DNA of 64,000 nucleotides from Candidatus Woesearchaeota archaeon (GCA_002687795.1 NZBG01000034.1:10362-74361), one strand, 5' to 3'. Shown: positions 19,667 to 58,160, numbered from the stretch's first letter. The notes: generated from the sequence alone by a model not told the origin. Made by a program: numbers and translations.

Positions 19667-19717
19667 TTAATTTCCCCCTTGTGTTTTTCCTAGTTAAGCA
19701 GCAGGCTTTAGCCTATG

Positions 19718-21151: not shown

Positions 21152-21168
21152 TTTGGTTGTAGTGAATA

Positions 21169-45247: not shown

Positions 45248-45262
45248 CCATTTTTCATAATT

Positions 45263-45907
45263 ATGATAAAGATAGACATACATGTGCATACAAAGTATTC
45301 CAGGGACAGCTTGCTTGAGCTTAAAACAATAAGCAAGCTCTGCTCAAGAAAAGGGATTATCCCTGTTATATCTGACCATAATTCTCTTAAAGGCGCGCTT
45401 CAGTACAGAAAGCTGTTCAAAGATTGCATAGTTGGGGAAGAGATCAACACCTCCCAGGGAGAGATAACAGCTCTTTTCTTAAACAATGAAATACCTTCCG
45501 GGCTGGATATTGATGCCACAATAGACAGGATAAGGGAGCAGGATGCTGTTTTATATGTTCCCCATCCCTTTGATTCATTAAGGAGGGAAACAATAAAAAC
45601 ATCAGCCCTTTCCAGGATTAAGCCTGATATCATAGAGGTCTTTAACTCCAGAACTGTTTTATCTGCCTCAAATAAAATGGCTAAAGAGTTTGCCATTAAG
45701 AACAAGTATCTGAAAGGCGTTGGCTCTGATGCGCACACCGGCAGAGAGATAGGGAATGCCTTTGCTGCTGTGGAGGATTTTAACCTTGATTCTAAGAAGG
45801 ATTTTCTCAGGAATCTCAAAGATGCAAAGTTTTACTGCAGGAAGTCAGGCCTTGCAGTGCATGCTGTCACCTTTTTTGAGAAAAGGCTTAAGCTCGTTAG
45901 AAAATGA
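45263..45907 (+). CDS. PHP-domain metal-dependent phosphoesterase
   Basis: MIKIDIHVHTKYSRDS ... VPHPFD ... GSDAHT, the His/Asp-rich PHP motifs. Confidence 0.55.
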   Translation: MIKIDIHVHTKYSRDSLLELKTISKLCSRKGIIPVISDHNSLKGALQYRKLFKDCIVGEEINTSQGEITALFLNNEIPSGLDIDATIDRIREQDAVLYVPHPFDSLRRETIKTSALSRIKPDIIEVFNSRTVLSASNKMAKEFAIKNKYLKGVGSDAHTGREIGNAFAAVEDFNLDSKKDFLRNLKDAKFYCRKSGLAVHAVTFFEKRLKLVRK

Positions 45908-45917
45908 ACCTTCTAAG

Positions 45918-46790
45918 TCAGTAATACACTATCAAAAAGCTGGATGCAAGCCATAGGACTATTCCTATCATCATCCTTATGTCAAAGAACACTTTCTCAG
46001 GATGCCTTGTAACTTCCGAGCCTTTCTCGATAAGGTACAAATACCTGAATATCACATAAAGCGCGAATGGAAGAGTAAGCACAAGGTACTGGTTTATGCT
46101 TAAGAAGCTGTACAGTGAATAAGACATGATCAGCAGGCTTGTGGAAATAACCATCAATGATTTTGTGATCGGCTTTGTATAAAAGCTGAAGACCTCTTTA
46201 TGCGAGACTGCTTTCTCCCCAAGGTAAACCAGGTCAGCCTCTCTCTTCCCTATAGAGATAAACAGGGAAAGAAAAAACACGCAGATGATAAGCCAGGGGG
46301 ACAGCCTTAGCCAGGGCATGCCATCAACCATTATAACAAACACCCCTGAAGCAGCCCTTACCACAAAGTTGACTGCTATTATTATAATATCAACAAAAGG
46401 CTCTTTCTTGAGAAAGAAAGAATAAAGCTGTGTAACCAGGAACAGGAACAATATAAACAGCAGGAAATATCCTGATAAGGATATCCCTATGCCAAGGGAT
46501 ACAATAAACAATGTTATTGCCAGTATTATCGCCTGCCAAACCTTTATCTTTCCTGAAGCCAGGGGCCTTAACCTCTTTTCAGGATGGTTGATATCCTTCT
46601 TTATATCCACTATATCATTGATTATATAATTCACAGACGAAATAAAACAAAGTGCCAGAAAGCCATAGAAAGTCTTTTCCAGTCCAACAAGGTTTAGAAG
46701 CTCACTGGCGAATATTATAGATAAAAATATTACCAGGTTCTTATACCACTGCCTTACTCTCATCAAATAGATTATATCTCTTAATTTCAT
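45918..46790 (-). CDS. UbiA-family polyprenyl-phosphate (phospho)glycosyl/prenyl transferase, DPPR-synthase-like
   Basis: 8-9 TM helices; YIINDIVDIKKDINHPEKRLRPLASGKI is the NDxxDxxxD motif; N-terminus RVRQWYKNLVIF. Confidence 0.65.
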   Translation of the reverse strand: MKLRDIIYLMRVRQWYKNLVIFLSIIFASELLNLVGLEKTFYGFLALCFISSVNYIINDIVDIKKDINHPEKRLRPLASGKIKVWQAIILAITLFIVSLGIGISLSGYFLLFILFLFLVTQLYSFFLKKEPFVDIIIIAVNFVVRAASGVFVIMVDGMPWLRLSPWLIICVFFLSLFISIGKREADLVYLGEKAVSHKEVFSFYTKPITKSLMVISTSLLIMSYSLYSFLSINQYLVLTLPFALYVIFRYLYLIEKGSEVTRHPEKVFFDIRMMIGIVLWLASSFLIVYY

Positions 46791-46804
46791 TCCAGAACAT
46801 AGAT

Positions 46805-48070
46805 TTACTTCTCCATTAAAAAACCTTTCGATGAGCTGGCTTCTGAACTGAATGCTGATTTACGCACAAACACGCCTTTTAGCAGCAGCTTAGACAGCTG
46901 CCTTGCATACTTCAGCCTCAGGAAGCTGAACAGGTTCCACTTCTTAACAGCAGGAGCAGCGCCGATCTTTTCTATATCTTTCATGGAAACCGTAAACGCA
47001 GCTGTCTTAGCCATCACCATAAGCAAAGAGAAGACCGCCAGGAGAAAAATAACAGGCCTTAGGTATACAAGATTCTTTATTGACAACGCCAAAGGTATGG
47101 CCAGGTATGGCAGCATTGATGCAATATACCTATGGTCTCTTGCATCTCCTCCCCACCAGGTTTTATGCTTTGAGATAAGAAGGAACAAAGGAAGGCAGAG
47201 AAGAGCAAACATAACAAGAAACTCCAAAGGAAGGTAATAAAAGCCAATAACCCCGAATATCAGCACAGGGCTGATCACAAAGATGCCGCCGTTCTTTATA
47301 GAGAAAAGCAGCCCGGTTATTCCTGAAAAGATTGGCGTGACAAATGTTGTGAAAGGCGAGTTTGACCATTTAAAGAATGCGCTGTGTTTGTAAGATGTTG
47401 TGAAAGGAGAGCCAAAACATATCTTGTTATAGAGGAAAAGAGGTGCAATGCCTATAACAAAGCCAATAACCAGGTAAGGTGTTGACCAGAAATCTCCCAA
47501 AATCAGTTTAGAGAGAACGATTCCTCCCAGATACATAACATTGGTGTATTCAACCATTGCAGCAAGCCCTATTATTATTCCTGCAAATACAGGACTTAGC
47601 CCTATCAACAGGCAATAGACAGCAGCCAGTATAAGGAAGGTTGACAAAGAATGTATAAAGAACACAACACTGTATCTCCAGTTCAGTGTGCTGAAGGCGA
47701 AAATAAGCGCTGTTACAAAAGATATTGAAGGGCTGTTAACCAGCATCTCCGCTATAAGATACACCAACACACAAGAAAATATCCCGGAAAGCCATGAAAC
47801 AAGAGTTACCGGAAGCCTAAGATAATGGAACACAACCGCTGCAAAAGCCAAACCAGGCGGCCTGTCTGTATAATAATTATCTCCTATTTTAGCATAGTCT
47901 ATTTCCTTTGTATACTTTGTGAAATCATTGATAGCTAATTTTTTCTTTTCAACAATCGCCCTCACCAAAGCAAACAGGCTTCCGTCATTAGAAGTAATTA
48001 TGCCCTTCATCGACAGGCCGTAAATAATCCCGACTATAACTATAAGCATAATCAAGAACAATTTTAACAC
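46805..48070 (-). CDS. Polytopic membrane protein; GT-C-like (polyprenyl-P-sugar dependent) glycosyltransferase candidate
   Basis: 421 aa, about 11 TM helices, with a first-loop acidic motif (SNDGSLFALV ... DYAKIGDNYYTDRPPG). Confidence 0.4.
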   Translation of the reverse strand: MLKLFLIMLIVIVGIIYGLSMKGIITSNDGSLFALVRAIVEKKKLAINDFTKYTKEIDYAKIGDNYYTDRPPGLAFAAVVFHYLRLPVTLVSWLSGIFSCVLVYLIAEMLVNSPSISFVTALIFAFSTLNWRYSVVFFIHSLSTFLILAAVYCLLIGLSPVFAGIIIGLAAMVEYTNVMYLGGIVLSKLILGDFWSTPYLVIGFVIGIAPLFLYNKICFGSPFTTSYKHSAFFKWSNSPFTTFVTPIFSGITGLLFSIKNGGIFVISPVLIFGVIGFYYLPLEFLVMFALLCLPLFLLISKHKTWWGGDARDHRYIASMLPYLAIPLALSIKNLVYLRPVIFLLAVFSLLMVMAKTAAFTVSMKDIEKIGAAPAVKKWNLFSFLRLKYARQLSKLLLKGVFVRKSAFSSEASSSKGFLMEK

Positions 48071-49158
48071 TTCCTATTCTCGCATTTTTGATATACCGGG
48101 CAATCTTCACAGACTTTAGGGGTCTGCCCTGATCTCAGCATTTTTCTTAATGCTGTGAACTTTTTCCCGTACCATATCTCTCTAAATGGTGTTTCAAAAA
48201 CATTGCCCATGCTGGTCTTTTTCTGGAACTCTCTCCTGTTTGCCTCATTCTCAGCGCAGCATGGTATAACATGCCCGGTAACAAATATATAAGGCATTGC
48301 CCATGCAATACAGTTGTTCATTGTTACCTTATTGCAGTCAGCCTTTGTGTTAAGGTTCCATAGGATTGTCTGCTTGCATTCTTCGCCAACTTTATCTACC
48401 CTTTTTATCTGCTCCTTGGTTATCTTTGTATTGATATCCTTAATCTCTTCAAATTCATGAAGGTTGTTTGTAAACTGTATATGCTCATTTTTTGGGCAGA
48501 TTCTGGCGATTAGCCTCACAAAATCCTCCATCTCATGCTGGTTGATCTTATTCACAATATAATGGAATGCAATCAACGGCAGCTTTGTGCCTCTCTTCTT
48601 TTTCTCTCTGGTGAAATTTTTTATATTCTCAACCACTGTTTCGTAATTAGAGCCAACCCTGATTTTCTCATAGGTTTCTTTTGTTGTCCCGTCCATTGAA
48701 ACATAAACCTTATCAATTTTTGCATCAAAGATTTTTGACAGGATTTCAGGAGTCATTTTACAGAAAGAATCGAATATCTCTGTATACTGCCCCTTCTTTT
48801 TTGAATACTCAAGCATCTTTGGAAAATCTTTGTTGAGAAGGTTGTTGCCTATGCCGCTAAAGCCTACCCAGGTTAGCGAAGGTATCTGGTCTATTATCTT
48901 CTTGTACTCGTCAAGGCTCATCAGCTTTGGCTTTTCATCCCAGTATGTATGCTCGCATTCTATACAACGAAGATCGCAATAAGTGCTGATTTCAATCTCA
49001 ATATAATAAGGCATTGGAACTTTTTTATAGAACATATCAACAATTCTCTTATTATGCCTCATATACAAAGGCCAGTATCTTAAATGCCTGTATGTAAACC
49101 CCAGGCCTCTCTCCTTCAGGAGATAGTACACGTTCCTTATCCTTCTCAAAAACATCAT
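48064..49158 (-). CDS. Radical SAM enzyme with a SPASM-like C-terminal Cys cluster
   Basis: IEISTYCDLRCIECEHTYW and a C-terminal CCAENEANRREF...CEDCPVYQKCENRKC. Confidence 0.75.
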   Translation of the reverse strand: MMFLRRIRNVYYLLKERGLGFTYRHLRYWPLYMRHNKRIVDMFYKKVPMPYYIEIEISTYCDLRCIECEHTYWDEKPKLMSLDEYKKIIDQIPSLTWVGFSGIGNNLLNKDFPKMLEYSKKKGQYTEIFDSFCKMTPEILSKIFDAKIDKVYVSMDGTTKETYEKIRVGSNYETVVENIKNFTREKKKRGTKLPLIAFHYIVNKINQHEMEDFVRLIARICPKNEHIQFTNNLHEFEEIKDINTKITKEQIKRVDKVGEECKQTILWNLNTKADCNKVTMNNCIAWAMPYIFVTGHVIPCCAENEANRREFQKKTSMGNVFETPFREIWYGKKFTALRKMLRSGQTPKVCEDCPVYQKCENRKC

Positions 49159-49198: not shown

Positions 49199-50062
49199 CT
49201 AAACATTATGATCCCTGCCAAAAAGCCTTTCATAATATTTTTGGGCAGTGTTTGACTTGGCATGTATGATAAAGGAAGCCAGCTGGTTTAAAGTAAAAAA
49301 AGAGCCATATACCACTAAAAACCAGTATAAAAAGCTCCATCTTGGGACAAGCATGACAGACTTATTAATGTATTCCAGGATTATCAGCAGCAATATAATC
49401 AGCTTATCATAAGGGCAGACCCATAAAAAGTTCATCTTCTCGCTGATTTTATACAAAAAGCCAAACTTTCCGGTTGCCTCGCCAATCTTTGAAAGCTTGT
49501 TCTCTTTTTTTGTGTTTTGTCTGATATTAATACCTTCCTTGCTGTCTTCCATACTCTTGATTGCTTCAAGCCTCTTGTTCACTATGGTCCATGTAAGGGC
49601 CATGAACACCACCGAAGCTGAAAACACAACAGCCAGAAACCCGAAGATAAGGGCTGAGATTTTTGCTGTATTCAGAAAAACAGAAAACGCTATCCCAAAA
49701 TACATGAACTTGGGAAGAAACTGGTGAGATATCTCATCAATATGCACTCCAAGGATGCTTGTCTGTTTCCTGTACCTTGCGATCTCGCCATCCACTGTGT
49801 CAAGGATAAAACCGAAATTCATAAGCAATATCCCTATCAGCATATATTCCAATGTCCCAAAGAAAAGGAGGACTGCGCCAAGAAGGGTTATCAATATATG
49901 AAAGACAGTGACCTGGTTAGCTGTAATAGAGGTGTACAGGAAAAGTTTGGTGATATAAATAGATATTTTCCTAATAAAATATTTCTGGTATAAAGGATGT
50001 TTCTGCTCTTCCCATCCCCTTATCCTGCACTTCTCTTTTAATACTGAAATTGGTTCTGTCAT
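49199..50062 (-). CDS. CDP-alcohol phosphatidyltransferase-family membrane protein
   Basis: DTVDGEIARYRKQTSILGVHIDEISH matches D-G-x2-A-R-x8-G-x3-D with the last D replaced by H. It has multiple TM helices. Confidence 0.55.
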   Translation of the reverse strand: MTEPISVLKEKCRIRGWEEQKHPLYQKYFIRKISIYITKLFLYTSITANQVTVFHILITLLGAVLLFFGTLEYMLIGILLMNFGFILDTVDGEIARYRKQTSILGVHIDEISHQFLPKFMYFGIAFSVFLNTAKISALIFGFLAVVFSASVVFMALTWTIVNKRLEAIKSMEDSKEGINIRQNTKKENKLSKIGEATGKFGFLYKISEKMNFLWVCPYDKLIILLLIILEYINKSVMLVPRWSFLYWFLVVYGSFFTLNQLASFIIHAKSNTAQKYYERLFGRDHNV

Positions 50063-50116
50063 ATACTAAAAAGATTAAAGATTTGTTTATATATTTTTTG
50101 GATAGTTTGTCAAAAA

Positions 50117-50977
50117 CTACAGCCTGGCATGAATCCTTGTCAGGATATCCTTATCAACATCCAAGCTCCCTATATCCCCCCTTATATCCCCATGAAAGTC
50201 TGTTCCTCCTGATTCCAGAAGGTTCCTCTTTTCTGCAATTGATTTAAAGAGCTGGTTTTTTGCTATGCTTTCTTCTTTGGGAGTTTTGTTTATAACATCA
50301 TAAGGATAATAAGTCTCAATACCTTCACCGCCATTCTTAATAAAAAGGTCTATCAACTCTGCTGCATCCTTGTCGGAATATACCCCCGGATGCGCAAGAA
50401 AGCACAGGCCTCCGGCAGCCTTGATAACATCTATCGCCTCTTTCATTCTTATCTTAAGCGTTCTTTCAACATAAGCAGGCTTTCCGGTTCCTATATACTG
50501 GTCGAACACATCCTTAATAGTGGAGAATTTATCTGGGTATCTCTTTAACAAAAGCCTTGCGATATGAGGCCTTCCGAAAGAGCCTTTCACTGATTTGCTC
50601 ACTTCCTCAAATGTTATATCAAAGCCTAACTCATTCAGTTTTCTGATGATTTCTTTCTTTTGCTTTATTCTGTCCTGCCTTATCTTATCTGTCAGCTCAA
50701 GCAGTCTTTTATTCCTGAAATCAATAAACAACCCTATAATATGAACATTAACAAAACCCAGTTCTTTCTCATCACAGCCGAACTCAATGCCCGGAACAAG
50801 CTCAAGCCCTATATTATTTTTTGTTATATGCCTTAAAGCAGGCTCTATACCGCTAACTGTGTCATGGTCTGTGACAGCAATTGTTTTCATTCCCCTTTCA
50901 ACTGCCCTGTCAACCACCTGCTCAGGCGTAAAAGTGCCATCTGATTTATCCGTATGTATATGAAGATCGATTTTCAT
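50117..50977 (-). CDS. PHP-domain metal-dependent phosphoesterase
   Basis: MKIDLHIHTDKSDGTFTPEQVVDRAVERGMKTIAVTDHDTVSG and a C-terminal GGTDFHG. Confidence 0.7.
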   Translation of the reverse strand: MKIDLHIHTDKSDGTFTPEQVVDRAVERGMKTIAVTDHDTVSGIEPALRHITKNNIGLELVPGIEFGCDEKELGFVNVHIIGLFIDFRNKRLLELTDKIRQDRIKQKKEIIRKLNELGFDITFEEVSKSVKGSFGRPHIARLLLKRYPDKFSTIKDVFDQYIGTGKPAYVERTLKIRMKEAIDVIKAAGGLCFLAHPGVYSDKDAAELIDLFIKNGGEGIETYYPYDVINKTPKEESIAKNQLFKSIAEKRNLLESGGTDFHGDIRGDIGSLDVDKDILTRIHARL

Positions 50978-51612
50978 TTTATGTTTAATAAAGAGATTAA
51001 TTGATTTGCTAACTTCTCGAATCTTTCTTTGCCAATCATTACCTTTCTGACAGGCTTCATCTTCACAAACTCTTCACCTGTTCCTGAGTCCTTATGCACC
51101 TCTTTTCTTCCAAAGGAACTGTCCACTGTATAAGGCTGGCCTATATCTCCCCTGAAAGGAAATACTTTGATATGAAGATGCTCTTTCTTTTCTTTCCAGT
51201 TTGTGCATTTTCCATAGGTTGCCATGGAAACTGCATCTTCCTTTGACTCTGATGTTACCTTAAACCCTTTATTCTCAGCTGCCATGAGCCCGGCCATAGC
51301 ATTGCATACCTTAGAGAAAGCTGTTCCATAGTTTTCAGCCAGTTTAGGGTAATTGCTTACCTGGCAGAAATGGGTCAGATGCGCCTGGGGCATTAGCTGT
51401 ATAGTAAAATCCTGCTCAGGGTCTCCGCCGGTTTTAGGGGACAAAGTGGCAAACCAGCTGTCTTCAGCAGAGCTGCCTATCCTGAAAACAATAACAGCTC
51501 CGTAATCTGTTCTTTGCCCAACTTTCAGTGAAGATTCACTGCAAAGATTACAATCTTTATGCAAAGAGGCGTCTTCTTTTATTAGCCCATTAATATTATC
51601 ATTCATTTTCAA
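50974..51612 (-). CDS. HIT-like/GalT-like nucleotide-binding protein (tentative)
   Basis: An N-terminal CNLC pair and an EHLHIKVFPF (H-x-H-x-K) motif resembling HIT/GalT HxHx[HQ]. It has 4-bp and 14-bp overlaps with its neighbours. Confidence 0.3.
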   Translation of the reverse strand: MKMNDNINGLIKEDASLHKDCNLCSESSLKVGQRTDYGAVIVFRIGSSAEDSWFATLSPKTGGDPEQDFTIQLMPQAHLTHFCQVSNYPKLAENYGTAFSKVCNAMAGLMAAENKGFKVTSESKEDAVSMATYGKCTNWKEKKEHLHIKVFPFRGDIGQPYTVDSSFGRKEVHKDSGTGEEFVKMKPVRKVMIGKERFEKLANQLISLLNIK

Positions 51613-52708
51613 CTGGCTTTATGAATTCCTTCTCCCTTCTTTCATCAACATAAGCATCAAAATATCCCACCACAAGCCTGTAATAATTCTCTTTATTCTT
51701 AGCGCTGACTTTCTCAAGGATTCCGCATGCCCTAAGCTTCTCCCCAGGATGAGCAAGCATTGCATAATCCCTTGAATAGAATACAATCTTCTTTATCTTA
51801 TTGTTTATGCCTTCTAATTTTAAGCCGTTGCCATCTATTACTTTTGCATCCTTTATATCATAACATCCAGGCCTTACAATAGAGTTATGGCTGTCTGTTA
51901 CAATGCCTTCAATGGCTGCTAACCCTAATGAGGAATATTGCTCTTCCCCCCATTTGAACCAGACCTCCTCTTCCTTCTCAGTCGCAAAGATTACAAAAAG
52001 GCAGCCATTAAAATATCCTTCTGATTTCCTCTTCCTCATTATGCGCAGGAAACCATCCTCGCTGAATATCCCAAACCTGTTCCTTTTCTTATAGAAATCC
52101 AGCCATTCTTCGTCTGTCTTCCACTTCAGTGAAGGATGCTCTGCTGTCTCAAGGTATTTCATAAGCTTCCAGAAGTTCTCTTTGCCATAGACCACAATGT
52201 TTATATCTGATATGTTTGACATGTAATGCCCCATTAGGGTTGAGTATGTTATGCCAAGGTCCTTTATCCTCAGGCCGCTTCCTATAAAGAAGCTCACGAG
52301 CTCATGAACAGTCTTAAGGTGTTCATCAAGCGCTTCCTTTGGCATTGCCATAAGCTCTGAAAGACCTCTCCTGGGGAAATATATTCTTTCTATATCATCA
52401 ACAGGCACTGTGAAAAAAAGCCTTTCCTCAGTATGCTGGGGGCTTTCAAGCATATAATGCGGATATGCCTCTTTGAACTGCTCAATATATGTTTTCAGCT
52501 TTGCCTTGTCAATCCAGAGGTTGAGCCTGTTCATCTTTCTCCCTGAGATGAACCTGTATTGCAGTGCATCTGACTCAATCTTGCCTGTGGGAATATACTT
52601 TGGCTTTACAAGTATGCTGCTCATGGGATGCTCATTCCCATAAACCTGGCAATGCAGGCCGTCCTTTGTTGTTATGATTGATGATTCATAGAAGTGCATA
52701 TTATTCAA
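51599..52708 (-). CDS. Pol-beta-superfamily nucleotidyltransferase-fold protein (LicD/fukutin-like phosphotransferase candidate), tandem paralogue 2
   Basis: LGITYSTLMGHYMSNISDINIVVYGKEN carries a G...DhDh minimal-NTase motif. It shares end-to-end similarity with 52701..53804. Confidence 0.35.
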   Translation of the reverse strand: MNNMHFYESSIITTKDGLHCQVYGNEHPMSSILVKPKYIPTGKIESDALQYRFISGRKMNRLNLWIDKAKLKTYIEQFKEAYPHYMLESPQHTEERLFFTVPVDDIERIYFPRRGLSELMAMPKEALDEHLKTVHELVSFFIGSGLRIKDLGITYSTLMGHYMSNISDINIVVYGKENFWKLMKYLETAEHPSLKWKTDEEWLDFYKKRNRFGIFSEDGFLRIMRKRKSEGYFNGCLFVIFATEKEEEVWFKWGEEQYSSLGLAAIEGIVTDSHNSIVRPGCYDIKDAKVIDGNGLKLEGINNKIKKIVFYSRDYAMLAHPGEKLRACGILEKVSAKNKENYYRLVVGYFDAYVDERREKEFIKPVENE

Positions 52709-53804
52709 CCTCTGCTTTTATGTATTCTTTCTCTCTTCTGTCAGTTAGATAGGCATCAAAATAGCCAACAACAACGCGATAATATCTGCTCCCATCCTTT
52801 GCTGTTACCAGCTCAAGCAGGCCGCATGCTTTTACTCGTTCTCCTTTAAGCGCCTGCTGTATGAAAGGTATAGAATATGTTACAATTCTCTTTATAGGAA
52901 TCTCCTTGTTAAGCTTTAGGGCTTCACTCTCTCCTTCAACTATCTCCCCTTCTTCTATCTCATAATAACCAGGCCTTACATGGCTGTTGTAATGGTCTAT
53001 GACTTTTCCCCTTATTGTTGCTGTTCCAACTGGTTCATAGATTTCCTCACCCCATTTGAACCATGTTTCATCCGGCTCCTCAACAGTAAACAATGTAAAG
53101 ACAGTTCCTCCGAAAGTGCCTTCATACCTTTTCCTTCCCATATGCTTTACATACTCCTTCTCTGTAAAATGGGATGACTCTGATGTCTTATGTTCTTTAT
53201 AATATTCAGCCCATTCTTCATCAGTTTTCCATTTTAGCTTATCATGCGCTGCTGTTTTAAGGTAATCAAGAATTTTCCAGCCGTTTTCTTTTCCATAAAT
53301 AATGATATCTATGTCTGACTCCCCGGGAGTGTAGTTGGCCATTAAAGTGGAATGTGTTATGCCTAAATTATCAGGGCTTACTCCGCTCCTACACAGAAAA
53401 TCAACCAATTCCCTTACCAGTGTTAGGTATTCATCCAGGTCTTTCTTAGGCACTTTTAATAATTCGCCTAAACCTTTCCTTCCGTCATGGACAGTCTTTA
53501 TCTTTTCTTTTGGAACAACAAAGAACCAGTTCTTATGGACAGGAGAATCATAGATATAGCCAGGAAACTTTTTTCTGAACTGTTCTAAGTAATTAACGAG
53601 CTTTTCTTTTTCTGCGAACAGATTAAACCTCACAAGGCATTTCTCAAACAAAAACCTGTATTTCAGGCCCTCTCCCTCTATTGCTTCCTTGGGGATATAC
53701 TTTGGCTTAACGATTACATAGCCTTCAGGATGCTCGTTTCCATATGACTTACACTGGAAACCGTCTGTTGTGTCTATTAATGTTGATTCATAGAAGTGCG
53801 TCAT
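52701..53804 (-). CDS. Pol-beta-superfamily nucleotidyltransferase-fold protein (LicD/fukutin-like phosphotransferase candidate), tandem paralogue 1
   Basis: LGITHSTLMANYTPGESDIDIIIYGKEN; the N-terminus HFYESTLIDTTDGFQCKSYGNEHP is conserved with paralogue 2. Confidence 0.35.
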   Translation of the reverse strand: MTHFYESTLIDTTDGFQCKSYGNEHPEGYVIVKPKYIPKEAIEGEGLKYRFLFEKCLVRFNLFAEKEKLVNYLEQFRKKFPGYIYDSPVHKNWFFVVPKEKIKTVHDGRKGLGELLKVPKKDLDEYLTLVRELVDFLCRSGVSPDNLGITHSTLMANYTPGESDIDIIIYGKENGWKILDYLKTAAHDKLKWKTDEEWAEYYKEHKTSESSHFTEKEYVKHMGRKRYEGTFGGTVFTLFTVEEPDETWFKWGEEIYEPVGTATIRGKVIDHYNSHVRPGYYEIEEGEIVEGESEALKLNKEIPIKRIVTYSIPFIQQALKGERVKACGLLELVTAKDGSRYYRVVVGYFDAYLTDRREKEYIKAEVE

Positions 53805-55183
53805 TTTGTCACCTCTATTGGTTTTGCGGTTATATCATCCGGAATCTTCAGGCCTAATAGCCTCAAAATAGTTGGCGCTACCTGCTTTATGTCAATATCA
53901 TCTATTTGCCCTTTACAGGCAACCCATTTTCCGCTTATTATGAAACAGCCCTGCCTCGAATGGCCTGCGTTATCTGCGCCCACCGCACTTTCCCATGAAT
54001 ATAGGCCTTCCTGGCCAAGGTCAGGGTTTGAGGCCCATCTTAGCTCATCAAAGTAAACTATTAAGTCAGGGCATTCTCTGCTGGATGGATCTTTGTAGAT
54101 ATCTTCAGAAGAATAAACCTTTGTGTCAAGCTTTTTTCCTTTGTCATTTGGGATGTTCTCCAGTTTTTTTATTAGCTCCTTCTTTACTTTATTATAGTCT
54201 GCGCCAACAACCTTTCTGTTAATATAGACTCTTGCATTATATGCGCCGCCGCCGTATGCAACTGTTTTGTCCATGTCCACAAACTTTGTGTCAAACCTCT
54301 TCTTTTCGCTTAGGTCTATGCCTTCTTTAAGGACAAGATAGCCTTCCTTTGCCAGCCAGTTGTTGATATTGATTTTCCCTTCCTGCTTGAACATCCCATG
54401 GTCTGAGGCAACGATAATAATTGTATCATCATCAAGCAGCTCCATTATCTCGCCAAGCTTTTTATCAAGGTAAATGTAATAGTCTTTCAGGGCATCTTTA
54501 TGAGGTGAGTCTTTGATGAATCTTCTGTGTGTATCATCAAAATGCCTCCAGAGCATATGCTGCAGCCTGTCAGTTCCTATCATAACACTTATGAAGAAAT
54601 CCCATGACTCATTGGCAAGAAGGTCTTTTAAAAGCTCTATCTGCATATCAGTCATCTCATAAGTCCTCTCAAGCAGAGTGCTTATATCAAGGGACTTATG
54701 GCCTGCTAAGCCAACCGCAACGTCAAAGAAAATCTCAGGGTTTCCTTTAGAGATTATTTTTTCTCTTATCTTTTCAGGATAAGCGCAGTCGCTCTCAACA
54801 CCAGGTGTCAAGAACCCGCTGACCATGCAGCCGTTTACCTGCTTTACAGGAAAGGTCAAAGGCACATACAAGGCAATGCTCTTTTTATCCTGCTCTCCCA
54901 GGATGTCCCAAAGCAGTTTGCATTTTATGCTTCCTGAATTGGCTAATCTTGAATTTCCATCCTCATCTTTGTATGTATAGCTGAACACTCCTATTTGGCT
55001 TGCATCCTTCCCTGACAACATAGAATTCCAGGCTATTATTGTAGAAGGAGGTATTGTGCTGTTTACTTTAGCATAAGCTCCTGTGTCCATAAGTCTCTTT
55101 ATGTTCGGCAGTTCATTGTTCCATCTGCCAAAGATAAGTTCAGGCGGTGCTCCGTCAATTCCAAAAATAAAAACCTTGCTCAT
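53801..55183 (-). CDS. Alkaline-phosphatase-superfamily type I phosphodiesterase/nucleotide pyrophosphatase-like enzyme
   Basis: VFIFGIDGAPPEL...TIPPSTIIAWNSMLSG...IVASDHGMF. Confidence 0.6.
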   Translation of the reverse strand: MSKVFIFGIDGAPPELIFGRWNNELPNIKRLMDTGAYAKVNSTIPPSTIIAWNSMLSGKDASQIGVFSYTYKDEDGNSRLANSGSIKCKLLWDILGEQDKKSIALYVPLTFPVKQVNGCMVSGFLTPGVESDCAYPEKIREKIISKGNPEIFFDVAVGLAGHKSLDISTLLERTYEMTDMQIELLKDLLANESWDFFISVMIGTDRLQHMLWRHFDDTHRRFIKDSPHKDALKDYYIYLDKKLGEIMELLDDDTIIIVASDHGMFKQEGKININNWLAKEGYLVLKEGIDLSEKKRFDTKFVDMDKTVAYGGGAYNARVYINRKVVGADYNKVKKELIKKLENIPNDKGKKLDTKVYSSEDIYKDPSSRECPDLIVYFDELRWASNPDLGQEGLYSWESAVGADNAGHSRQGCFIISGKWVACKGQIDDIDIKQVAPTILRLLGLKIPDDITAKPIEVTK

Positions 55184-55195
55184 GATAAAATCACT

Positions 55196-56314
55196 CTACA
55201 TTTCTTTTTCAAGCAAAGGCCATAGCTTTTCTTCTATGTCAAGCCCTTTCCCTGCAAGATTATTCTTTTCGTCCGGGTCGTTCTTCATGTCATAAAGCTC
55301 TCTCTTATTGGTGCTGGTGTTGATAATAAGCTTCCAGTCTTCAGTCCTTATTGCTTTCACGTTCGGCTTCTTGGGGGAAGGCGCAGGCCCTCCTAAGCCG
55401 CCTGTCTCAGAAAATGCTATTCTGCTCTTCTCATCAGGGTTTCCTAAGAAAGGCATCAGGCTTGAGCCCCTGAACTCTTGTTCATTGAAATTTATCTTCA
55501 GCATATCCAGGATAGTGGGCATTATATCCACGCTCCTTACAAGCTTGCTTACTTCCAGCTCAGGAAATCTTTCTTTATTAAGAAACAATGCAAAAGTGTT
55601 CAGCGTATAATCATAGCAAAAGCTGCCATACACCTTTTCCCCTGCCCTTTCCCCTGTGCTTGTTCCATGGTCTGATGCAAGGATTATCACAGAGTTTTCA
55701 ATAAGGCCCTTTTTCTCCAGCTCATCAAAGATTGATTTCAGGTAAGCATCAGCTTCCTTGACATACGAGGAAAACATCTTCTGGTTGCCTTCCCTGTTGC
55801 TGAAATACTCCTCGCTGGTGTCTGTGTATTTCTTGACAACATTCTTAACAATAAGGTTATGGACAATGCTGCAGTGGAGATAAACGAACAAAGGCTTTTT
55901 TATATCCTCTACTGTGTTCAGAATATTCTTGTGCCTTGCTATCATCTCTTCTGCGTTCTCTATCACCTTCTCTTCTTCAAAACCTTTCTGTATTGTTAAC
56001 ACATCAAAACCCTGCCCTGGGATAACCATATCATTCATTGCATCCCCTATGGTGAAATAGCCATGCTCTTTAAGAAACTGGGGCAATGTCCTGCATTCTT
56101 TCCTGAAATTAGGCGCTCCATAATAATTATCAACCCCTGTCTCTTTTCCATACTTGCCTGTGAAAATAGAATGCAGGGATGCTATTGAGTATGGCGCATA
56201 GGCAAACATCCTGTTGAACAATGTACCCTGTAAGGTTGAGAAAAAAGGCATATCCTTTATCGTATCATGCCTTACACCATCAACCAATATAAAAATAATG
56301 TTTGGCTTGTCCAT
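55196..56314 (-). CDS. Sulfatase-fold (alkaline-phosphatase-superfamily) hydrolase/transferase that lacks the C/S-x-P-x-R formylglycine motif
   Basis: NIIFILVDGVRHD ... YSIASLHSIFTGKY (Ser where sulfatases have Cys, with no P/R) ... ILASDHGTSTGE. Confidence 0.55.
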   Translation of the reverse strand: MDKPNIIFILVDGVRHDTIKDMPFFSTLQGTLFNRMFAYAPYSIASLHSIFTGKYGKETGVDNYYGAPNFRKECRTLPQFLKEHGYFTIGDAMNDMVIPGQGFDVLTIQKGFEEEKVIENAEEMIARHKNILNTVEDIKKPLFVYLHCSIVHNLIVKNVVKKYTDTSEEYFSNREGNQKMFSSYVKEADAYLKSIFDELEKKGLIENSVIILASDHGTSTGERAGEKVYGSFCYDYTLNTFALFLNKERFPELEVSKLVRSVDIMPTILDMLKINFNEQEFRGSSLMPFLGNPDEKSRIAFSETGGLGGPAPSPKKPNVKAIRTEDWKLIINTSTNKRELYDMKNDPDEKNNLAGKGLDIEEKLWPLLEKEM

Positions 56315-56315
56315 T

Positions 56316-56543
56316 TTAGTCCAGATAACCCAGGCTTCTTAGCCTTTCTTTAACCTTGATTTCATCCTCTTTGCTGAAAGGGTTTTCCTTCTTCTCAGAA
56401 TCCTCTGATTCAGAGATTATCTGCCTTAGGATATAGGTTATATAGCTTGATATAGAATTAAATCCTGTGCCTTCTATCCTCTTTTTAACCTTCTCAGCCA
56501 GTATTTTAGGTATAGATACTGTTGTGATATTATGTTCTTCCAT
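56316..56543 (-). CDS. Small ribbon-helix-helix (CopG/Arc-like) DNA-binding protein
   Basis: 75 aa. TVSIPKILAEKVKKRIEGTGFNSISSYITYILRQ fits a beta-strand plus two-helix RHH fold. Confidence 0.4.
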   Translation of the reverse strand: MEEHNITTVSIPKILAEKVKKRIEGTGFNSISSYITYILRQIISESEDSEKKENPFSKEDEIKVKERLRSLGYLD

Positions 56544-56706
56544 TTTAGAGCCCTCCTTCGGTTATATATATGTTTAATAGTATTTAATTGGCATTTATAT
56601 GATATTTATTCGACATTTATATAGTTTTTGGTTTAATCAATAGAAAAAGGCTTCTTCCAGTAGCTCAGAACTTATATCCTTTGAGTTTAAAGGACTTTAT
56701 TTAATC

Positions 56707-56752
56707 AGGTATTTGTTGTGTTGATTAGGGTTCTTACACTGTCATTTATCGC
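56707..56752. repeat. Left copy of a ~46-bp direct repeat that brackets the HEPN/MNT islet
   Basis: aggtaTTTGTTGTGTTgATTAGGGTTCTTACaCTGTCATTTATcGC. A second copy lies at 58178-58224 with about 4 mismatches. Confidence 0.55.
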
Positions 56753-56827
56753 TTGGAAGGTCATTAACTGGTATTCTGCTGCATAGAACGCTGGGGTTAA
56801 GTTAAATAAGCCGCTTATTAAGAAATA

Positions 56828-56899
56828 TGTCAGTATAACCTAATATTTAGGGGTAAAATGTGTCAGTATAACGATATATTTGTATAACCTGTATTTAGG
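56828..56899. repeat. Short intergenic direct repeats (TGTCAGTATAAC x2; TATAACCT(A/G)TATTTAGG x2)
   Basis: The copies are visible at 56828-56839 and 56861-56872, and at 56834-56851 and 56883-56899. Confidence 0.4.
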
Positions 56900-57171
56900 T
56901 GAAGAAAAGATAAAAGGAAAAAGGATTTGAAAAGGTTATGAGAAAATTACAAAGAAAAGAAGAAAAAGACCATAAAGAGTTGCTTAAACTTAAGAAGAAA
57001 AGATAACTCCTGAAAAGCCAAAGAAAGTATATGGCTGGCTGATTGTTTTGATAATTCTGTTATTATGTATATTGGAATACTTTGTTTACCTAAGACTAAT
57101 AGAAAGGTTTAATAAATTAAACAGAAATATTTAAATATCTTTTCTGTTTAACTTGTTAATTAGATGATAAA

Positions 57172-57546
57172 ATGATTGGTGAAATCCATAAAGAAGCTGC
57201 AAAATCTCATTTAAAAGTGGGTGAAGAGTTTTACAAAAAAATGCAGGAAGAATCAGATACAAACAAGAAGACAGCTAATATGATTGTAAGCGCTCAGAAC
57301 TATTTTTATTGCTCAGTTAATGTAATAGAATATATTTTATTCAAAGAGAAAAAAGAACATTCCTTTAACCATGAAAACAGATTTAGAAAGGTGAAAGAAT
57401 ACTTCAATATATTTCCTTCTGAGTTCGCAGAACTATATGACAAAGTAGATAGGGATCTTAGGAATAAAGTAGCTTATAGAGGAGAGAATTCTGAGAAATT
57501 TGAATCGTTAAAGAAATTAGCAGAATCAGCAATTAAGTTACTATGA
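57172..57546 (+). CDS. HEPN-like small alpha-helical protein (partner of the minimal nucleotidyltransferase)
   Basis: 124 aa, all-helical, with a C-terminal RDLRNKVAYRGE Rx4-6[H/Y]-like motif. Its stop overlaps the downstream ATG (ATGA). Confidence 0.4.
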   Translation: MIGEIHKEAAKSHLKVGEEFYKKMQEESDTNKKTANMIVSAQNYFYCSVNVIEYILFKEKKEHSFNHENRFRKVKEYFNIFPSEFAELYDKVDRDLRNKVAYRGENSEKFESLKKLAESAIKLL

Positions 57547-58160
57547 ATAAATTTGAAAAAACACTTGAGGAACTGAAAAAGAAATTCTTCAAAATAAAAG
57601 ATATATCAATCGTTATATTATATGGCTCTGTTGCAAGAGGCAATTATTCTCTAAGACATTCAGATTTGGATTTATTTATAATTTTGAATAGGAGAGAGTC
57701 TAATGAAAAAATCGTGGGAAAAATTAATGATCAATTATTACCCCTTGGTTCTAGAAACGGAGTCAAGGTACATATTGAATACCAAGGAAGTAAAATAAAT
57801 GATGAGGACAAAACTTTGATTGAAAAAATGATTGAAGAAGGTAAAGTAATCTACTCAAATGCTTTTATGATTTTTCCAATAGATAAAATTGGTTTAGAAC
57901 AATATATTATCTATGAGTTTTCCTCAAAAGAACCTAAAATTAAAACCAGGATTTCACAGATATTCCATGGAAGAAAATCATGGTATCGCAAGGGTAAGAA
58001 GAAGATTATAAAAGAATATGAAGGCATTGCTGATGACAAGGATATAATTTTATTAGGCAAAGGGGCGGTCATGGTGGCTAAAAGTGAGCAGGAGGAGATA
58101 GTAAATATGTTTGAAAGGTTAGGAGTTGATTATAAAATAAAAAAGATTGTTTATGGTTAA
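57543..58160 (+). CDS. Minimal nucleotidyltransferase (MNT, Pol-beta superfamily)
   Basis: ILYGSVARGNYSLRHSDLDLFIIL, a GSxxRGx(n)SDxDL motif. Confidence 0.7.
   Translation: MNKFEKTLEELKKKFFKIKDISIVILYGSVARGNYSLRHSDLDLFIILNRRESNEKIVGKINDQLLPLGSRNGVKVHIEYQGSKINDEDKTLIEKMIEEGKVIYSNAFMIFPIDKIGLEQYIIYEFSSKEPKIKTRISQIFHGRKSWYRKGKKKIIKEYEGIADDKDIILLGKGAVMVAKSEQEEIVNMFERLGVDYKIKKIVYG

What the first reader, a model, noticed from the sequence alone, without database searches (positions are those of the whole stretch)
49199..56314. A probably undescribed phospho-alcohol decoration operon: CDP-alcohol phosphatidyltransferase, PHP, HIT-like, tandem LicD-like genes, two AP-superfamily phosphodiesterases and a pseudo-sulfatase
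Seven consecutive minus-strand genes are translationally coupled through overlaps of 4, 14, 8 and 4 bp. Together they supply every activity needed to make an NDP- or CDP-activated alcohol or polyol and transfer the phospho-alcohol onto a lipid-linked or protein-linked glycan. The CDP-alcohol phosphatidyltransferase motif DGxxARx8Gx3D is visible. Two PHP and AP-superfamily phosphoesterases carry a Thr nucleophile region and DHG metal motifs. A sulfatase-fold protein has YSIASLHSIFTG in place of CxPxR, so it is a phosphotransferase of the LtaS type rather than a sulfatase. There is a HIT/GalT-like HxHxK protein. Two tandem 368-aa paralogues carry a Pol-beta-fold G...SDIDIIIYG motif reminiscent of LicD/fukutin-type phosphocholine or polyol-phosphate transferases. 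Directly downstream lie a SPASM radical SAM gene, a GT-C gene and a UbiA gene. Teichoic-acid-like or phosphocholine-like decoration of an archaeal envelope glycan by a system like this has not, to my knowledge, been described.
Basis: partly seen in the sequence, partly recalled or inferred. Interest (0 to 1): 0.75.

Follow-up and report, generated by a model that had tools for sequence, protein, structure and literature searches.

The report
Conserved DPANN nucleotide-donor module for envelope decoration
This gene row in a marine Woesearchaeota genome holds an uncharacterised four-to-six-gene module, conserved across DPANN archaea, that most likely makes and recycles a PAPS-like activated nucleotide donor for decorating the cell envelope, and it is not the LicD-type phospho-alcohol system first proposed.

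Summary
The unit was drawn wrongly and the key assignment fails.

- **Conserved unit.** Across 63 non-redundant DPANN loci the conserved unit is NT-A, NT-B, HIT and a nucleotide 3'-phosphatase. The sulfatase-like gene and the CDP-alcohol-transferase-like gene are variable accessories. The radical SAM, GT-C and UbiA genes are unrelated neighbours.
- **The tandem paralogues.** They form a separate family, a Pol-beta nucleotidyltransferase plus an OB fold, and are not LicD. NT-A always carries DxD and NT-B always DxN. Their distant relatives are tandem genes in methanopterin (H4MPT) C1 islands.
- **Fusions.** Phosphodiesterase+HD+NT-A, NT-B+HIT and PHP+APS-kinase fusions tie the parts together.
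- **The 3'-phosphatase slot.** It is filled by PHP (pAp-phosphatase/RNase AM type), by a CysQ/IMPase-type protein or by a SpoT-type HD protein, mutually exclusively, in 37 of 38 loci.
- **PAPS-pathway genes.** APS kinase or a sulfotransferase lies beside the module in about half of the loci, but neither occurs in this window.

Best reading (confidence 0.4): the module synthesises and recycles a 3'-phospho-nucleotide donor of the PAPS type for envelope glycan or lipid decoration.

The parts
56316..56543 (-). Its N-terminus looks ribbon-helix-helix-like by sequence pattern only. Its C-terminal tail L..LGYL(D) is invariant.
   Evidence: ORF found. Homologues head the module in L001 and L002 and in 25 loci. 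Alignment A5 shows invariant L68, L71, G72, Y73 and L74. No Pfam or PDB support for the RHH reading.
55196..56314 (-). Sulfatase-fold alkaline-phosphatase-superfamily protein without the formylglycine motif (S-I-A-S-L in place of C/S-x-P/A-x-R). It is soluble. It is a variable accessory, inserted here between the small gene and the phosphodiesterase.
   Evidence: PF00884 scores 90 bits. Alignment to S1 sulfatases shows the motif replaced. No TM segment predicted. Weak homologues occur in only 7 other loci, usually downstream of PHP.
53801..55183 (-). PDE1, a cytoplasmic NPP-type phosphodiesterase/nucleotide pyrophosphatase with a complete binuclear metal site and a Ser/Thr nucleophile.
   Evidence: PF01663 scores 130.7 bits. 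D10, S/T48, D205, H209, D261, H262 and H408 are conserved. Orthologues are 58-73% identical and sit directly upstream of NT-A in 19 of 38 well-flanked loci. It is fused to HD and NT-A in 1087-aa proteins.
52701..53804 (-). NT-A, a Pol-beta-fold nucleotidyltransferase with a C-terminal OB fold. It is the presumed catalytic subunit (G-I-T-H-S-T-L...S-D-I-D).
51599..52708 (-). NT-B, a paralogue of NT-A (48% identical) with a degenerate metal motif (Y-S-T-L...S-D-I-N). It is a presumed non-catalytic or altered partner subunit.
   Evidence: DxN in all 50 scored NT-B copies. It is fused to the HIT protein in P0246 and in at least 6 loci.
50974..51612 (-). HIT-superfamily protein of the GalT/Ap4A-phosphorylase type. 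It has CxxC, HxxH and an H-L-H-I-K active-site motif.
50117..50977 (-). PHP-domain phosphoesterase of the TrpH/YciV (RNase AM) / Cv1693 3',5'-nucleoside-bisphosphate-phosphatase group.
   Evidence: PF02811 scores 57 bits. NCBIfam RNase RNM scores 174 bits and the nucleoside bisphosphate phosphatase model 172 bits, both below cut-off. PDB 7ug9 scores 117 bits, and 2yb1 also matches. In other loci the slot is filled by IMPase/CysQ-like or SpoT-like HD genes, and PHP is fused to APS kinase in L001.
49199..50062 (-). Atypical CDP-alcohol-phosphatidyltransferase-family membrane protein (6 predicted TM segments, signature D..DG..AR(8)G...D...H). It is a frequent but variable accessory and may have its own promoter.
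   Evidence: PF01066 scores 41.4 bits. AIP-synthase and DIPP-synthase models score 46-49 bits, below cut-off. Motif and TM segments. The fourth signature position is His in about half of 104 relatives. Found in 17 of 63 loci, often right after PHP or APS kinase. The nearest relative is only 40% identical.
50063..50116 (-). Intergenic spacer with a T5 run and a TATA-like box (aaaatatataaa). It is a possible terminator/promoter boundary between the core and the CDP-OH gene. This is inferred.
   Evidence: Sequence read.
56544..56640 (-). AT-rich upstream region with TATA-like boxes and a GGAGG motif before the small gene. It is the putative promoter of the module. This is inferred, and the region is AT-rich, so a chance match is likely.
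   Evidence: Sequence read. GC is 0.315 in the 56001-58000 window.

Best explanation
**What it is**

The real unit is a DPANN-wide cytoplasmic module. Its core is NT-A/NT-B, HIT and a nucleotide 3'-phosphatase. NT-A/NT-B is probably a heteromer of an active and a degenerate Pol-beta nucleotidyltransferase, each with an OB fold. HIT is of the GalT/Ap4A-phosphorylase type. About half of the lineages add a small protein with a GYLD tail and an NPP-type phosphodiesterase.

**Proposed mechanism** (inferred unless marked as shown)
1. NT-A/NT-B together with HIT form a nucleoside-5'-phospho-X compound by nucleotidyl transfer. X is most simply sulfate, giving APS, or otherwise a phospho-group.
2. An APS-kinase-type enzyme phosphorylates the 3'-OH to give PAPS or a PAPS-like donor. 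That this kinase is adjacent or fused in many relatives is shown. No such gene is present in this window.
3. Variable 'output' transferases move X onto lipid-linked envelope glycans or lipids on the cytoplasmic face. Candidates are the atypical CDP-alcohol-transferase-like membrane protein, the sulfatase-fold and NPP-type AP-superfamily proteins, and classical sulfotransferases in other genomes.
4. The PHP enzyme removes the 3'-phosphate from the pNp by-product. In other genomes a CysQ-like or SpoT-like protein takes this role.

**In this window**

The module is small gene, sulfatase-like, PDE1, NT-A, NT-B, HIT, PHP and then the CDP-OH-like gene. The radical SAM, multi-TM and UbiA genes downstream belong to a different, neighbouring pathway.
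For: **Shown**
- NT-A, NT-B and HIT are syntenic in essentially every locus long enough to judge. A 3'-phosphatase-type gene is present in 37 of 38 well-flanked loci: PHP in 28, IMPase/CysQ-family in 3 and SpoT-like HD in 6, never two types together.
- Fusions link the parts: PDE1+HD+NT-A, HD+NT-A, NT-B+HIT and PHP+APS kinase.
- APS kinase passes the TIGR00455 cut-off (176 bits against 138.7). It occurs in 19 of the 63 non-redundant loci, usually directly after PHP or directly before NT-A, and the L001 PHP fusion is a 20th case.
- Sulfotransfer_2 genes (39 bits against a cut-off of 22) or weak Sulfotransfer_1/3 genes lie next to the module in 8 loci.
- The PHP protein is closest to RNase AM and Cv1693. 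That group prefers 3',5'-pAp (PMC11528712).
- No canonical ATP-sulfurylase motif occurs in any locus ORF.
- There is a precedent for an APS-kinase homologue making a 3'-phospho-NDP-X donor for capsule decoration, the C. jejuni CDP-phosphoramidate 3'-phosphate (PMC11800397).
- The envelope-glycan context is constant.
Against: - This 64-kb window has no APS kinase, sulfotransferase, CysQ-like or HD homologue.
- APS kinase is nearby in only about a third of loci. It is anticorrelated with PDE1: 1 of 19 loci with upstream PDE1 by the scoring, 2 of 19 once the L001 fusion that this scoring missed is counted, against 12 of 19 without it. The variants follow clades, so the counts are not independent events.
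- No Pol-beta-fold enzyme is known to adenylylate sulfate. The roles assigned to NT-A/NT-B and HIT are pure inference.
- Whole genomes could not be checked for sat/cysDN. The motif scan for Sat covers only +/-10 kb and is a weak test.
- The PHP family also has RNase, diribonuclease and deFADding activities. The NT OB fold resembles nucleic-acid binders. An RNA role is therefore not excluded.
- The IMPase-family proteins score as well for HisN as for CysQ.
Confidence: 0.4

Rival explanations
1. An NDP- or CDP-activated alcohol or polyol is made and transferred as a phospho-alcohol (teichoic-acid-like or phosphocholine-like) onto glycans. The tandem paralogues act like LicD/fukutin phosphotransferases, and the CDP-alcohol transferase acts as a second transferase.
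For: - The paralogues have an NTase fold, with DxD in NT-A.
- A CDP-OH_P_transf-family gene follows PHP here and lies in 17 loci.
- Distant NT relatives sit next to CitG in H4MPT islands. From my own knowledge, a CitX/MdcG-like phosphodiester-forming step is plausible there.
- NTP_transferase and CTP_transf_like genes are common neighbours.
- The context is an envelope-glycan island.
Against: - There is no LicD (PF04991) signal even at E<=10.
- The unit contains no cytidylyltransferase.
- NT-B is degenerate.
- The CDP-OH gene is variable and lacks the fourth catalytic Asp.
- The model does not explain the APS kinase, the sulfotransferases or the interchangeable 3'-phosphatases.
Confidence: 0.2
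2. Head-group remodelling of scavenged membrane lipids. The CDP-alcohol transferase acts as an archaetidyl-inositol-phosphate- or glycerol-phosphate-type synthase. PHP, IMPase or HD removes the terminal phosphate. The AP-superfamily enzymes strip old head groups. The NT pair activates the lipid or the alcohol.
For: - The best NCBIfam hits of the CDP-OH protein are AIP synthase and DIPP synthase (46-49 bits).
- IMPase-family genes can replace PHP.
- DPANN archaea are known, from my own knowledge, to lack most lipid synthesis.
Against: - All those hits are far below the curated cut-offs.
- The CDP-OH gene is absent from most loci, whereas NT-A, NT-B, HIT and the phosphatase are constant.
- The NT proteins are soluble with no lipid-binding signature.
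- The APS kinase and sulfotransferases are unexplained.
Confidence: 0.1
3. An RNA or nucleotide housekeeping module that only happens to lie in glycan islands. It would combine a terminal nucleotidyltransferase with an OB fold, an RNase AM-type 5'-3' exonuclease, a HIT decapping or de-adenylylating enzyme and an NPP nuclease.
For: - The best PDB hit of PHP is RNase AM.
- Very high conservation, 70-80% identity, is typical of housekeeping genes.
Against: - Distant relatives are embedded in cofactor-biosynthesis islands, not RNA operons.
- The glycan context is constant.
- APS kinase passes its equivalog cut-off, and sulfotransferase and CysQ-like genes are adjacent.
Confidence: 0.1
4. Biosynthesis of a pterin-like or other small cofactor, by analogy with the tandem NT genes of H4MPT/C1 islands.
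For: - Full-length homology (25-30% identity, E about 1e-30 to 1e-40) to genes next to CitG, ATP-grasp, FTR, MCH, MTD and Fae genes.
- One relative is fused to HPPK.
Against: - None of the partner genes (CitG, ATP-grasp, FTR and the others) occurs among the recurrent clusters of the DPANN loci.
- The DPANN branch has its own fixed motifs and its own partners.
Confidence: 0.05

Closest known systems
PAPS synthesis and recycling (APS kinase CysC, PAPS-dependent sulfotransferases, pAp phosphatases CysQ / Cv1693-type PHP)
   Same: Relatives of this module are adjacent or fused to a bona fide APS-kinase-type gene and to sulfotransferases. The module always carries a pAp-phosphatase-type gene, which is PHP, CysQ-like or HD.
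   Different: No ATP sulfurylase (Sat or CysDN) was seen. In its place stand an NTase-OB pair and a HIT protein, neither known to activate sulfate. The window itself lacks APS kinase and sulfotransferase.
Campylobacter jejuni O-methyl-phosphoramidate capsule pathway (Cj1415-Cj1418, making CDP-phosphoramidate 3'-phosphate; PMC11800397)
   Same: A glycan-decoration locus uses an APS-kinase homologue to build a PAPS-like 3'-phospho-NDP-X donor.
   Different: In C. jejuni the NDP-X is made by a glutamine kinase, an NTP_transferase-fold cytidylyltransferase and an amidohydrolase. No NTase-OB pair, HIT, PHP or AP-superfamily gene takes part.
LicD / fukutin / FKRP phospho-alcohol transferases with CDP-alcohol donors
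   Same: An NTase-fold protein with a DxD motif sits in an envelope-glycan locus, and phosphodiester-forming chemistry is plausible.
   Different: There is no sequence-profile match to PF04991. The architecture differs, with an N-terminal beta domain and a C-terminal OB fold. The paralogues form an obligate pair with one degenerate member, and no cytidylyltransferase partner is present.
Tandem 'predicted nucleotidyltransferase' genes of methanopterin-linked C1 islands (orf19-type; gene island orf19-orf20-afpA-orf21-orf22, PMC3615186), and by analogy CitG/CitX (MdcB/MdcG)
   Same: Full-length homologues share the domain order. They also occur as overlapping tandem paralogues, and one is fused to HPPK, which corresponds to orf20.
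   Different: Identity is only 25-30%. The relatives keep the canonical GS...DxD motif in every copy and are partnered with CitG, ATP-grasp and C1 enzymes, not with HIT, PHP or PDE. To my knowledge their biochemical function is itself unproven. The equation with orf19 and the CitX analogy come from my own knowledge and were not tested.
Archaetidylinositol-phosphate / di-myo-inositol-phosphate-phosphate synthases plus phosphatase
   Same: A CDP-OH_P_transf-family membrane protein lies next to a phosphatase, and these are its best NCBIfam hits.
   Different: The scores are far below the cut-offs. The fourth signature Asp is His. There is an extra C-terminal region of about 120 aa. The gene is not part of the conserved core.

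Membership tests
LicD / fukutin-type phosphotransferase (PF04991) | Profile match to the LicD family | tested here: not met
   No PF04991 hit for either paralogue at E<=0.01 or at E<=10. The only trace is PF01909 NTP_transf_2 at E 0.09. Distant relatives hit PF01909 and PF18765.
LicD / fukutin-type phosphotransferase (PF04991) | Structural neighbours are LicD or FKRP catalytic domains | tested here: inconclusive
LicD / fukutin-type phosphotransferase (PF04991) | Uses a CDP-alcohol donor and forms a phosphodiester on a glycan | not testable with these tools
   Needs enzymology.
Pol-beta-like nucleotidyltransferase superfamily | NTase fold with hG[GS]x9-13Dh[DE]h | tested here: met
HIT superfamily | HIT fold | tested here: met
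HIT superfamily | Histidine triad H-phi-H-phi-H-phi-phi (or H-x-H-x-Q in the GalT branch) | tested here: not met
   The motif is H145-L-H147-I-K149. The third position is an invariant Lys. The nucleophile-equivalent His147 is present, so HIT-like nucleotidyl-enzyme chemistry remains plausible.
CDP-alcohol phosphatidyltransferase (PF01066) | Pfam match above gathering score, and a multi-pass membrane protein | tested here: met
   41.4 bits against 22. 6 predicted TM segments.
CDP-alcohol phosphatidyltransferase (PF01066) | Full signature D1xxD2GxxARx8GxxxD3xxxD4 | tested here: not met
   The window has D..DG..AR(8)G...D...H. The fourth position is His in about 50 of 104 relatives, and some relatives also change D2 or D3.
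Type I phosphodiesterase / nucleotide pyrophosphatase (AP superfamily, PF01663) | Profile match plus binuclear metal ligands and a Thr/Ser nucleophile | tested here: met
   130.7 bits. D10, S/T48, D205, H209, D261, H262 and H408 are conserved.
Formylglycine (S1) sulfatase | C/S-x-P/A-x-R maturation motif | tested here: not met
   The fold matches (PF00884, 90 bits), but the motif is S-I-A-S-L with no Arg. The neighbouring radical SAM protein shows no anSME hit among its 25 listed NCBIfam matches and co-occurs with the sulfatase-like gene only in this window.
3',5'-nucleoside bisphosphate phosphatase / RNase AM (PHP, TrpH/YciV/Cv1693) | Equivalog-level profile match | tested here: inconclusive
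   172-174 bits against cut-offs of 400 and 375. PDB 7ug9 scores 117 bits, E 1e-32, and 2yb1 scores 92 bits. The protein is a clear family relative, but its substrate is not established.
PAPS pathway (sulfate activation and transfer) | APS kinase present with the module | tested here: not met
   Absent from the 64-kb window. Present in 19 of 63 non-redundant loci, plus the L001 PHP fusion as a 20th, with scores above the TIGR00455 cut-off.
PAPS pathway (sulfate activation and transfer) | ATP sulfurylase (Sat or CysDN) | tested here: not met
   No Sat motif (RNPxHxxH, GRDHAG) in any ORF of 66 loci or the window segment. This is a motif scan of +/-10 kb only. Whole genomes were not searched.
PAPS pathway (sulfate activation and transfer) | PAPS-dependent sulfotransferase | tested here: not met
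   None in the window. Sulfotransfer_2 (39 bits against 22) is present in 4 related loci and weak Sulfotransfer_1/3 in 4 others.
Tandem NT genes of H4MPT/C1 islands (orf19-type) | Full-length homology and the same domain order | tested here: met
   Profile search gives E 1e-27 to 1e-40 over about 340 of 366 positions. Alignment A3 shows 25-32% identity.
Tandem NT genes of H4MPT/C1 islands (orf19-type) | Neighbourhood of CitG, ATP-grasp, FTR, MCH and other C1 genes | tested here: not met
   No such recurrent cluster occurs in the DPANN loci or the window.
Anti-phage defence (CBASS-like CD-NTase systems) | Match to known defence-system profiles | tested here: not met
   PADLOC gives no hit for seven of the eight proteins. 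PHP has only a 16-bit trace.

The most novel reading that the evidence does not exclude
The NTase-OB heteromer (NT-A/NT-B) and the GalT-type HIT protein together form a previously unknown route of sulfate activation, non-homologous to Sat and CysDN. Alternatively they make a new PAPS-like 3'-phospho-nucleotide donor. The donor would feed an atypical CDP-alcohol-transferase-like membrane enzyme and AP-superfamily transferases that decorate the DPANN cell envelope.
Probability: 0.15. Interest if true: 0.85.

Novelty: new variant of a known kind. Interest (0 to 1): 0.6.

Why it matters
DPANN archaea live attached to host cells, so their surface chemistry is central to that lifestyle, yet it is almost unknown. 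This module is among the most conserved non-housekeeping gene sets in their envelope islands, at 70-80% identity across orders, and none of its three core families has a studied member.

If the module makes a PAPS-type donor, it would point to sulfated or phospho-decorated envelopes in DPANN. It could also reveal a new enzyme solution for nucleotide activation.

The same NTase-OB family sits in methanopterin-linked C1 islands. Solving its chemistry in one place would therefore also help assign steps that, to my knowledge, are still unassigned in the other.

Tried and rejected
**Searches that found nothing useful**
- Sequence searches of the PDB with NT-A, HIT, PDE1 and the small protein, as single sequences or profiles, gave no useful hit.
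- Foldseek of the NT-A model against the PDB found nothing below E 0.019.
- The afdb50 library was not available.
- ARAGORN and Rfam found no RNA gene in the window.
- Literature searches found nothing specific on DPANN sulfation, on the function of orf19-type genes, on a CitG role in methanopterin synthesis or on an 'archaeal dark matter' description of this module. Kalyuzhnaya et al. 2005 and Taylor & Raushel 2018 are not held.

**Readings considered and rejected**
- LicD membership: no profile signal.
- A CBASS-like defence system: PADLOC is empty, and the high conservation and fixed glycan context argue against it.
- A sulfatase plus anaerobic-sulfatase-maturase pair: the motif lacks its Arg, the radical SAM protein looks like other SPASM maturases, and the two genes co-occur only here.
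- tRNA agmatidine synthetase TiaS: rejected from memory of its architecture only, not tested.
- The radical SAM, multi-TM and UbiA genes as part of the unit: not conserved with it.

**Not resolved**
- Whether the small protein is a regulator, a substrate or a carrier.
- Why PDE1 and APS kinase tend to exclude each other.

Full report
**1. What is in the window**

The window is a 64-kb piece of a marine Candidatus Woesearchaeota MAG. The HIT-like and CDP-OH-like proteins are 100% identical to NCBI proteins CMO89_04365 and CMO89_04355.

Pfam and NCBIfam give these assignments:

| Coordinates | Assignment |
|---|---|
| 49199-50062 | CDP-OH_P_transf |
| 50117-50977 | PHP, closest to RNase RNM / 3',5'-nucleoside bisphosphate phosphatase, below cut-off |
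| 50974-51612 | no family |
| 51599-52708 | no family |
| 52701-53804 | no family |
| 53801-55183 | Phosphodiest PF01663 |
| 55196-56314 | Sulfatase PF00884 without CxPxR |

So there is one PF01663 gene in the range, not two. A second one lies at 39618-41183.

Only the five genes from the phosphodiesterase to PHP are coupled by overlaps. The PHP to CDP-OH spacer (54 nt) carries a T5 run and a TATA-like box.

A conserved 75-aa gene at 56316-56543, directly upstream, was missed.

The surroundings are an envelope-glycan island. They include AglB/STT3, GT9 and GT2 glycosyltransferases, a flippase, SDR epimerases, five B12 radical SAM genes, PMT_2 and a deacetylase.

**2. The three unassigned proteins**

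The two ~368-aa proteins are paralogues, 48% identical.

There is no LicD signal in Pfam even at E<=10. There is no PADLOC defence hit.

The LicD call is not supported.

**3. What is conserved elsewhere**

NT-A has 271 database relatives at 53-81% identity, named only for Woesearchaeota, Nanoarchaeota and Aenigmarchaeota.

A scan of one genome per species returned 63 distinct loci, essentially all DPANN; one is only a 51-residue match on a Bacteroides contig. I analysed these together with three loci fetched earlier and the window segment, dropping three duplicates and that Bacteroides contig, which leaves 63 non-redundant loci. I called ORFs, clustered them all-against-all and mapped the window's proteins onto them.

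- NT-A, NT-B and HIT are syntenic wherever the contig is long enough.
- PHP follows in most loci.
- The small protein plus PDE1 precede NT-A in about half of the loci.
- The CDP-OH-like gene is present in 17 of the 63 loci.
- A sulfatase-like gene is present in 8, the radical SAM in 4, and UbiA in 2 after duplicates are removed.
- The seven-gene set as drawn, and the downstream trio, occur only in this window.

NT-A always carries G-x-[TS]-H-S-T-L...S-D-x-D (53 of 53). NT-B always carries G-x-T-Y-S-[TS]-x...S-D-x-N (50 of 50). This is an ancient, fixed split into a catalytic-looking and a degenerate paralogue. I infer that they act as a heteromer.

**4. Fusions and displacements**

Natural fusions tie the parts together:
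- PDE1+HD+NT-A, 1087 aa, in three loci and as P0243.
- HD+NT-A, about 614-626 aa.
- NT-B+HIT: P0246 is 60% identical to NT-B and 47% identical to HIT, and at least six loci carry such a fusion.
- PHP+APS kinase in L001.

In 38 loci with enough flanking DNA, the position after HIT is held by PHP in 28, by an IMPase/CysQ-family gene in 3 and by a SpoT-like HD gene in 6. Two types never occur together, and one of the three is present in 37 of 38 loci.

What these three unrelated families share is hydrolysis of a 3'(2')-phosphate on a nucleoside 5'-phosphate:
- The PHP protein is closest to RNase AM (7ug9) and to the pAp phosphatase Cv1693 (2yb1).
- RNase AM has enhanced activity on 3',5'-pAp (PMC11528712).
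- CysQ acts on pAp, and SpoT and MESH1 act on 3'-diphosphates and 2'-phosphates (my own knowledge).

**5. PAPS-pathway genes next to the module**

An APS-kinase gene passing the TIGR00455 cut-off (176 bits against 138.7) lies in 19 of the 63 non-redundant loci, usually directly after PHP or directly before NT-A; the L001 PHP fusion is a 20th case.

Sulfotransfer_2 genes (39 bits against 22) flank the module in 4 loci. Weak Sulfotransfer_1/3 genes sit beside the APS kinase in 4 more.

No locus ORF has ATP-sulfurylase motifs. This is a weak test that covers only +/-10 kb.

HIT enzymes accept adenylyl sulfate as substrate (PMC4613722). An APS-kinase homologue is also known to make a PAPS-like 3'-phospho-CDP-X donor for capsule decoration in C. 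jejuni (PMC11800397).

Against this reading:
- The window itself has no APS kinase, sulfotransferase, CysQ-like or HD gene.
- APS kinase and PDE1 tend to exclude each other: 1 of 19 loci with PDE1 by the scoring, 2 of 19 once the L001 fusion it missed is counted, against 12 of 19 without.
- The architectural variants follow clades, so the counts are not independent.

**6. Distant relatives of the NT family**

A profile search of 1.84 billion representatives found 898 proteins. They include a full-length family of 330-360 aa at 25-32% identity in Thermoproteota, Methanococcus, Bathyarchaeota and others.

These relatives keep the canonical GS...DxD motif and also occur as overlapping tandem or triple paralogues. 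They sit among CitG, RimK/ATP-grasp, F420_ligase, FTR, MCH, MTD, Fmd, Fae and MfnB-like genes. One is fused to HPPK and lies next to a flavoprotein and a pterin-binding protein. That arrangement matches the orf19-orf20-afpA-orf21 island of methylotrophs (PMC3615186).

The equation with orf19, and the analogy to the CitG/CitX pair, come from my own knowledge and were not tested. CitX is an NTase-fold enzyme that turns a ribose-5-triphosphate into a phosphodiester.

These relatives argue that the family works on small molecules rather than RNA, and that phosphodiester or nucleotidyl transfer to an oxygen nucleophile is its chemistry. The DPANN branch has different partners and its own fixed motifs.

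**7. The accessory genes**

- **CDP-OH-like protein.** It passes Pfam's threshold and has 6 predicted TM segments. Its signature ends in His instead of the fourth Asp, as it does in about half of its 104 relatives. Its nearest relative is only 40% identical. It often follows PHP or APS kinase. I infer that it is one of several alternative membrane 'output' transferases.
- **Sulfatase-fold protein.** It is soluble and has Ser-Ile-Ala-Ser-Leu at the formylglycine site. The neighbouring radical SAM protein shows no anSME hit among its listed matches and co-occurs with the sulfatase-like gene only here.
- **PDE1.** It has a complete NPP-type active site but only weak PDB relatives.
- **Small protein.** Its C-terminal L..LGYL(D) tail is invariant. 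Its RHH-like N-terminus is a pattern-based guess without profile support.

**8. Verdict**

It is right that this is an envelope-decoration locus of nucleotide-handling enzymes that nobody has described. Three things are not supported: the LicD assignment, the operon boundaries, and the claim that the genes form a complete CDP-alcohol route.

The best-supported reading (confidence about 0.4) is a DPANN-wide module that builds and recycles a 3'-phosphorylated nucleotide donor of the PAPS type. Variable transferases would use that donor on envelope glycans or lipids.

- **Shown:** synteny, the fusions, the folds, the motifs, the phosphatase displacement and the APS-kinase/sulfotransferase linkage.
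- **Inferred:** which enzyme makes what, the identity of X, and the acceptor.

They remain open at the probabilities given.

Noticed in passing
window 43225-49158: A second pathway lies next to the module. On the minus strand are a radical SAM/SPASM gene (48064-49158), a 9-TM protein (46805-48070) and a UbiA protein (45918-46790). The best NCBIfam hit of the UbiA protein is decaprenyl-phosphate phosphoribosyltransferase (181 bits, cut-off 234). Facing them on the plus strand are a PHP/PHP_C phosphatase (45263-45907) and two SDR epimerases (43225-45247). The set resembles the mycobacterial route to a polyprenyl-phosphate-linked pentose (DPPR to DPR to DPA) with a GT-C-like user. That comparison is from my own knowledge.
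   Followed up: partly
window 56316-56543; L001 8380-8634; L002 8265-8522: The 75-90-aa protein heading the module has an invariant C-terminal tail L..LGYL(D), including a Tyr two or three residues from the end. It always travels with PDE1. Whether it is a regulator, a carrier or a nucleotidylation substrate is unknown.
   Followed up: partly
window 49199-50062 and relatives P0413-P0526: A branch of the CDP-alcohol phosphatidyltransferase family has the fourth signature Asp, which from my own knowledge is the proposed catalytic base, replaced mostly by His. Some members also change D2 to N and D3 to E.
   Followed up: yes
L068 7001-9062; L071 2227-7077; L070 3806-8628; L069 5626-7143: Distant relatives of the NT pair occur as overlapping tandem or triple paralogues in H4MPT/methanofuran C1 islands, next to CitG and RimK-type ATP-grasp genes. 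One is fused to HPPK. They are candidates for steps of methanopterin side-chain assembly that, to my knowledge, are still unassigned.
   Followed up: partly
L047, L048, L049, L056 (gene directly upstream of NT-A): A 455-470-aa protein with an N-terminal winged-helix domain fused to a truncated pyruvate-kinase barrel and C-domain sits immediately before NT-A in four loci. Its role is unknown.
   Followed up: no
L002 12147-12803 (minus strand); also L039, L059, L061: A second, divergent HIT-like paralogue (about 27-30% identical, no Pfam hit) lies on the opposite strand between NT-B and the main HIT gene.
   Followed up: no
window 57172-58160: Two plus-strand genes overlap by 4 bp. One is a 124-aa protein with no family. 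The other is a 205-aa minimal Pol-beta nucleotidyltransferase (PF18765/PF01909). The pair looks like a HEPN/MNT-type toxin-antitoxin pair. It is separated from the module by an AT-rich region (GC 0.315).
   Followed up: no
window 18251-23917 and 35003-36493: There are five B12-binding radical SAM genes, four of them in one tandem run. Each is 33-36% identical to B12 radical SAM genes that recur in the related DPANN glycan islands. This suggests extensive radical methylation or modification of envelope sugars.
   Followed up: no
window 507-3968 and 13958-15457: A 1153-aa AglB/STT3 oligosaccharyltransferase and an LPG_synthase_TM domain fused to a methyltransferase lie in the same island.
   Followed up: no
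38 well-flanked loci: PDE1 with the small protein, and APS kinase, tend to exclude each other. APS kinase is present in 1 of 19 loci with upstream PDE1 by the scoring (2 of 19 once the L001 fusion is counted), against 12 of 19 without it. This is unexplained. It may reflect clade structure or two alternative ways of running the same pathway.
   Followed up: partly
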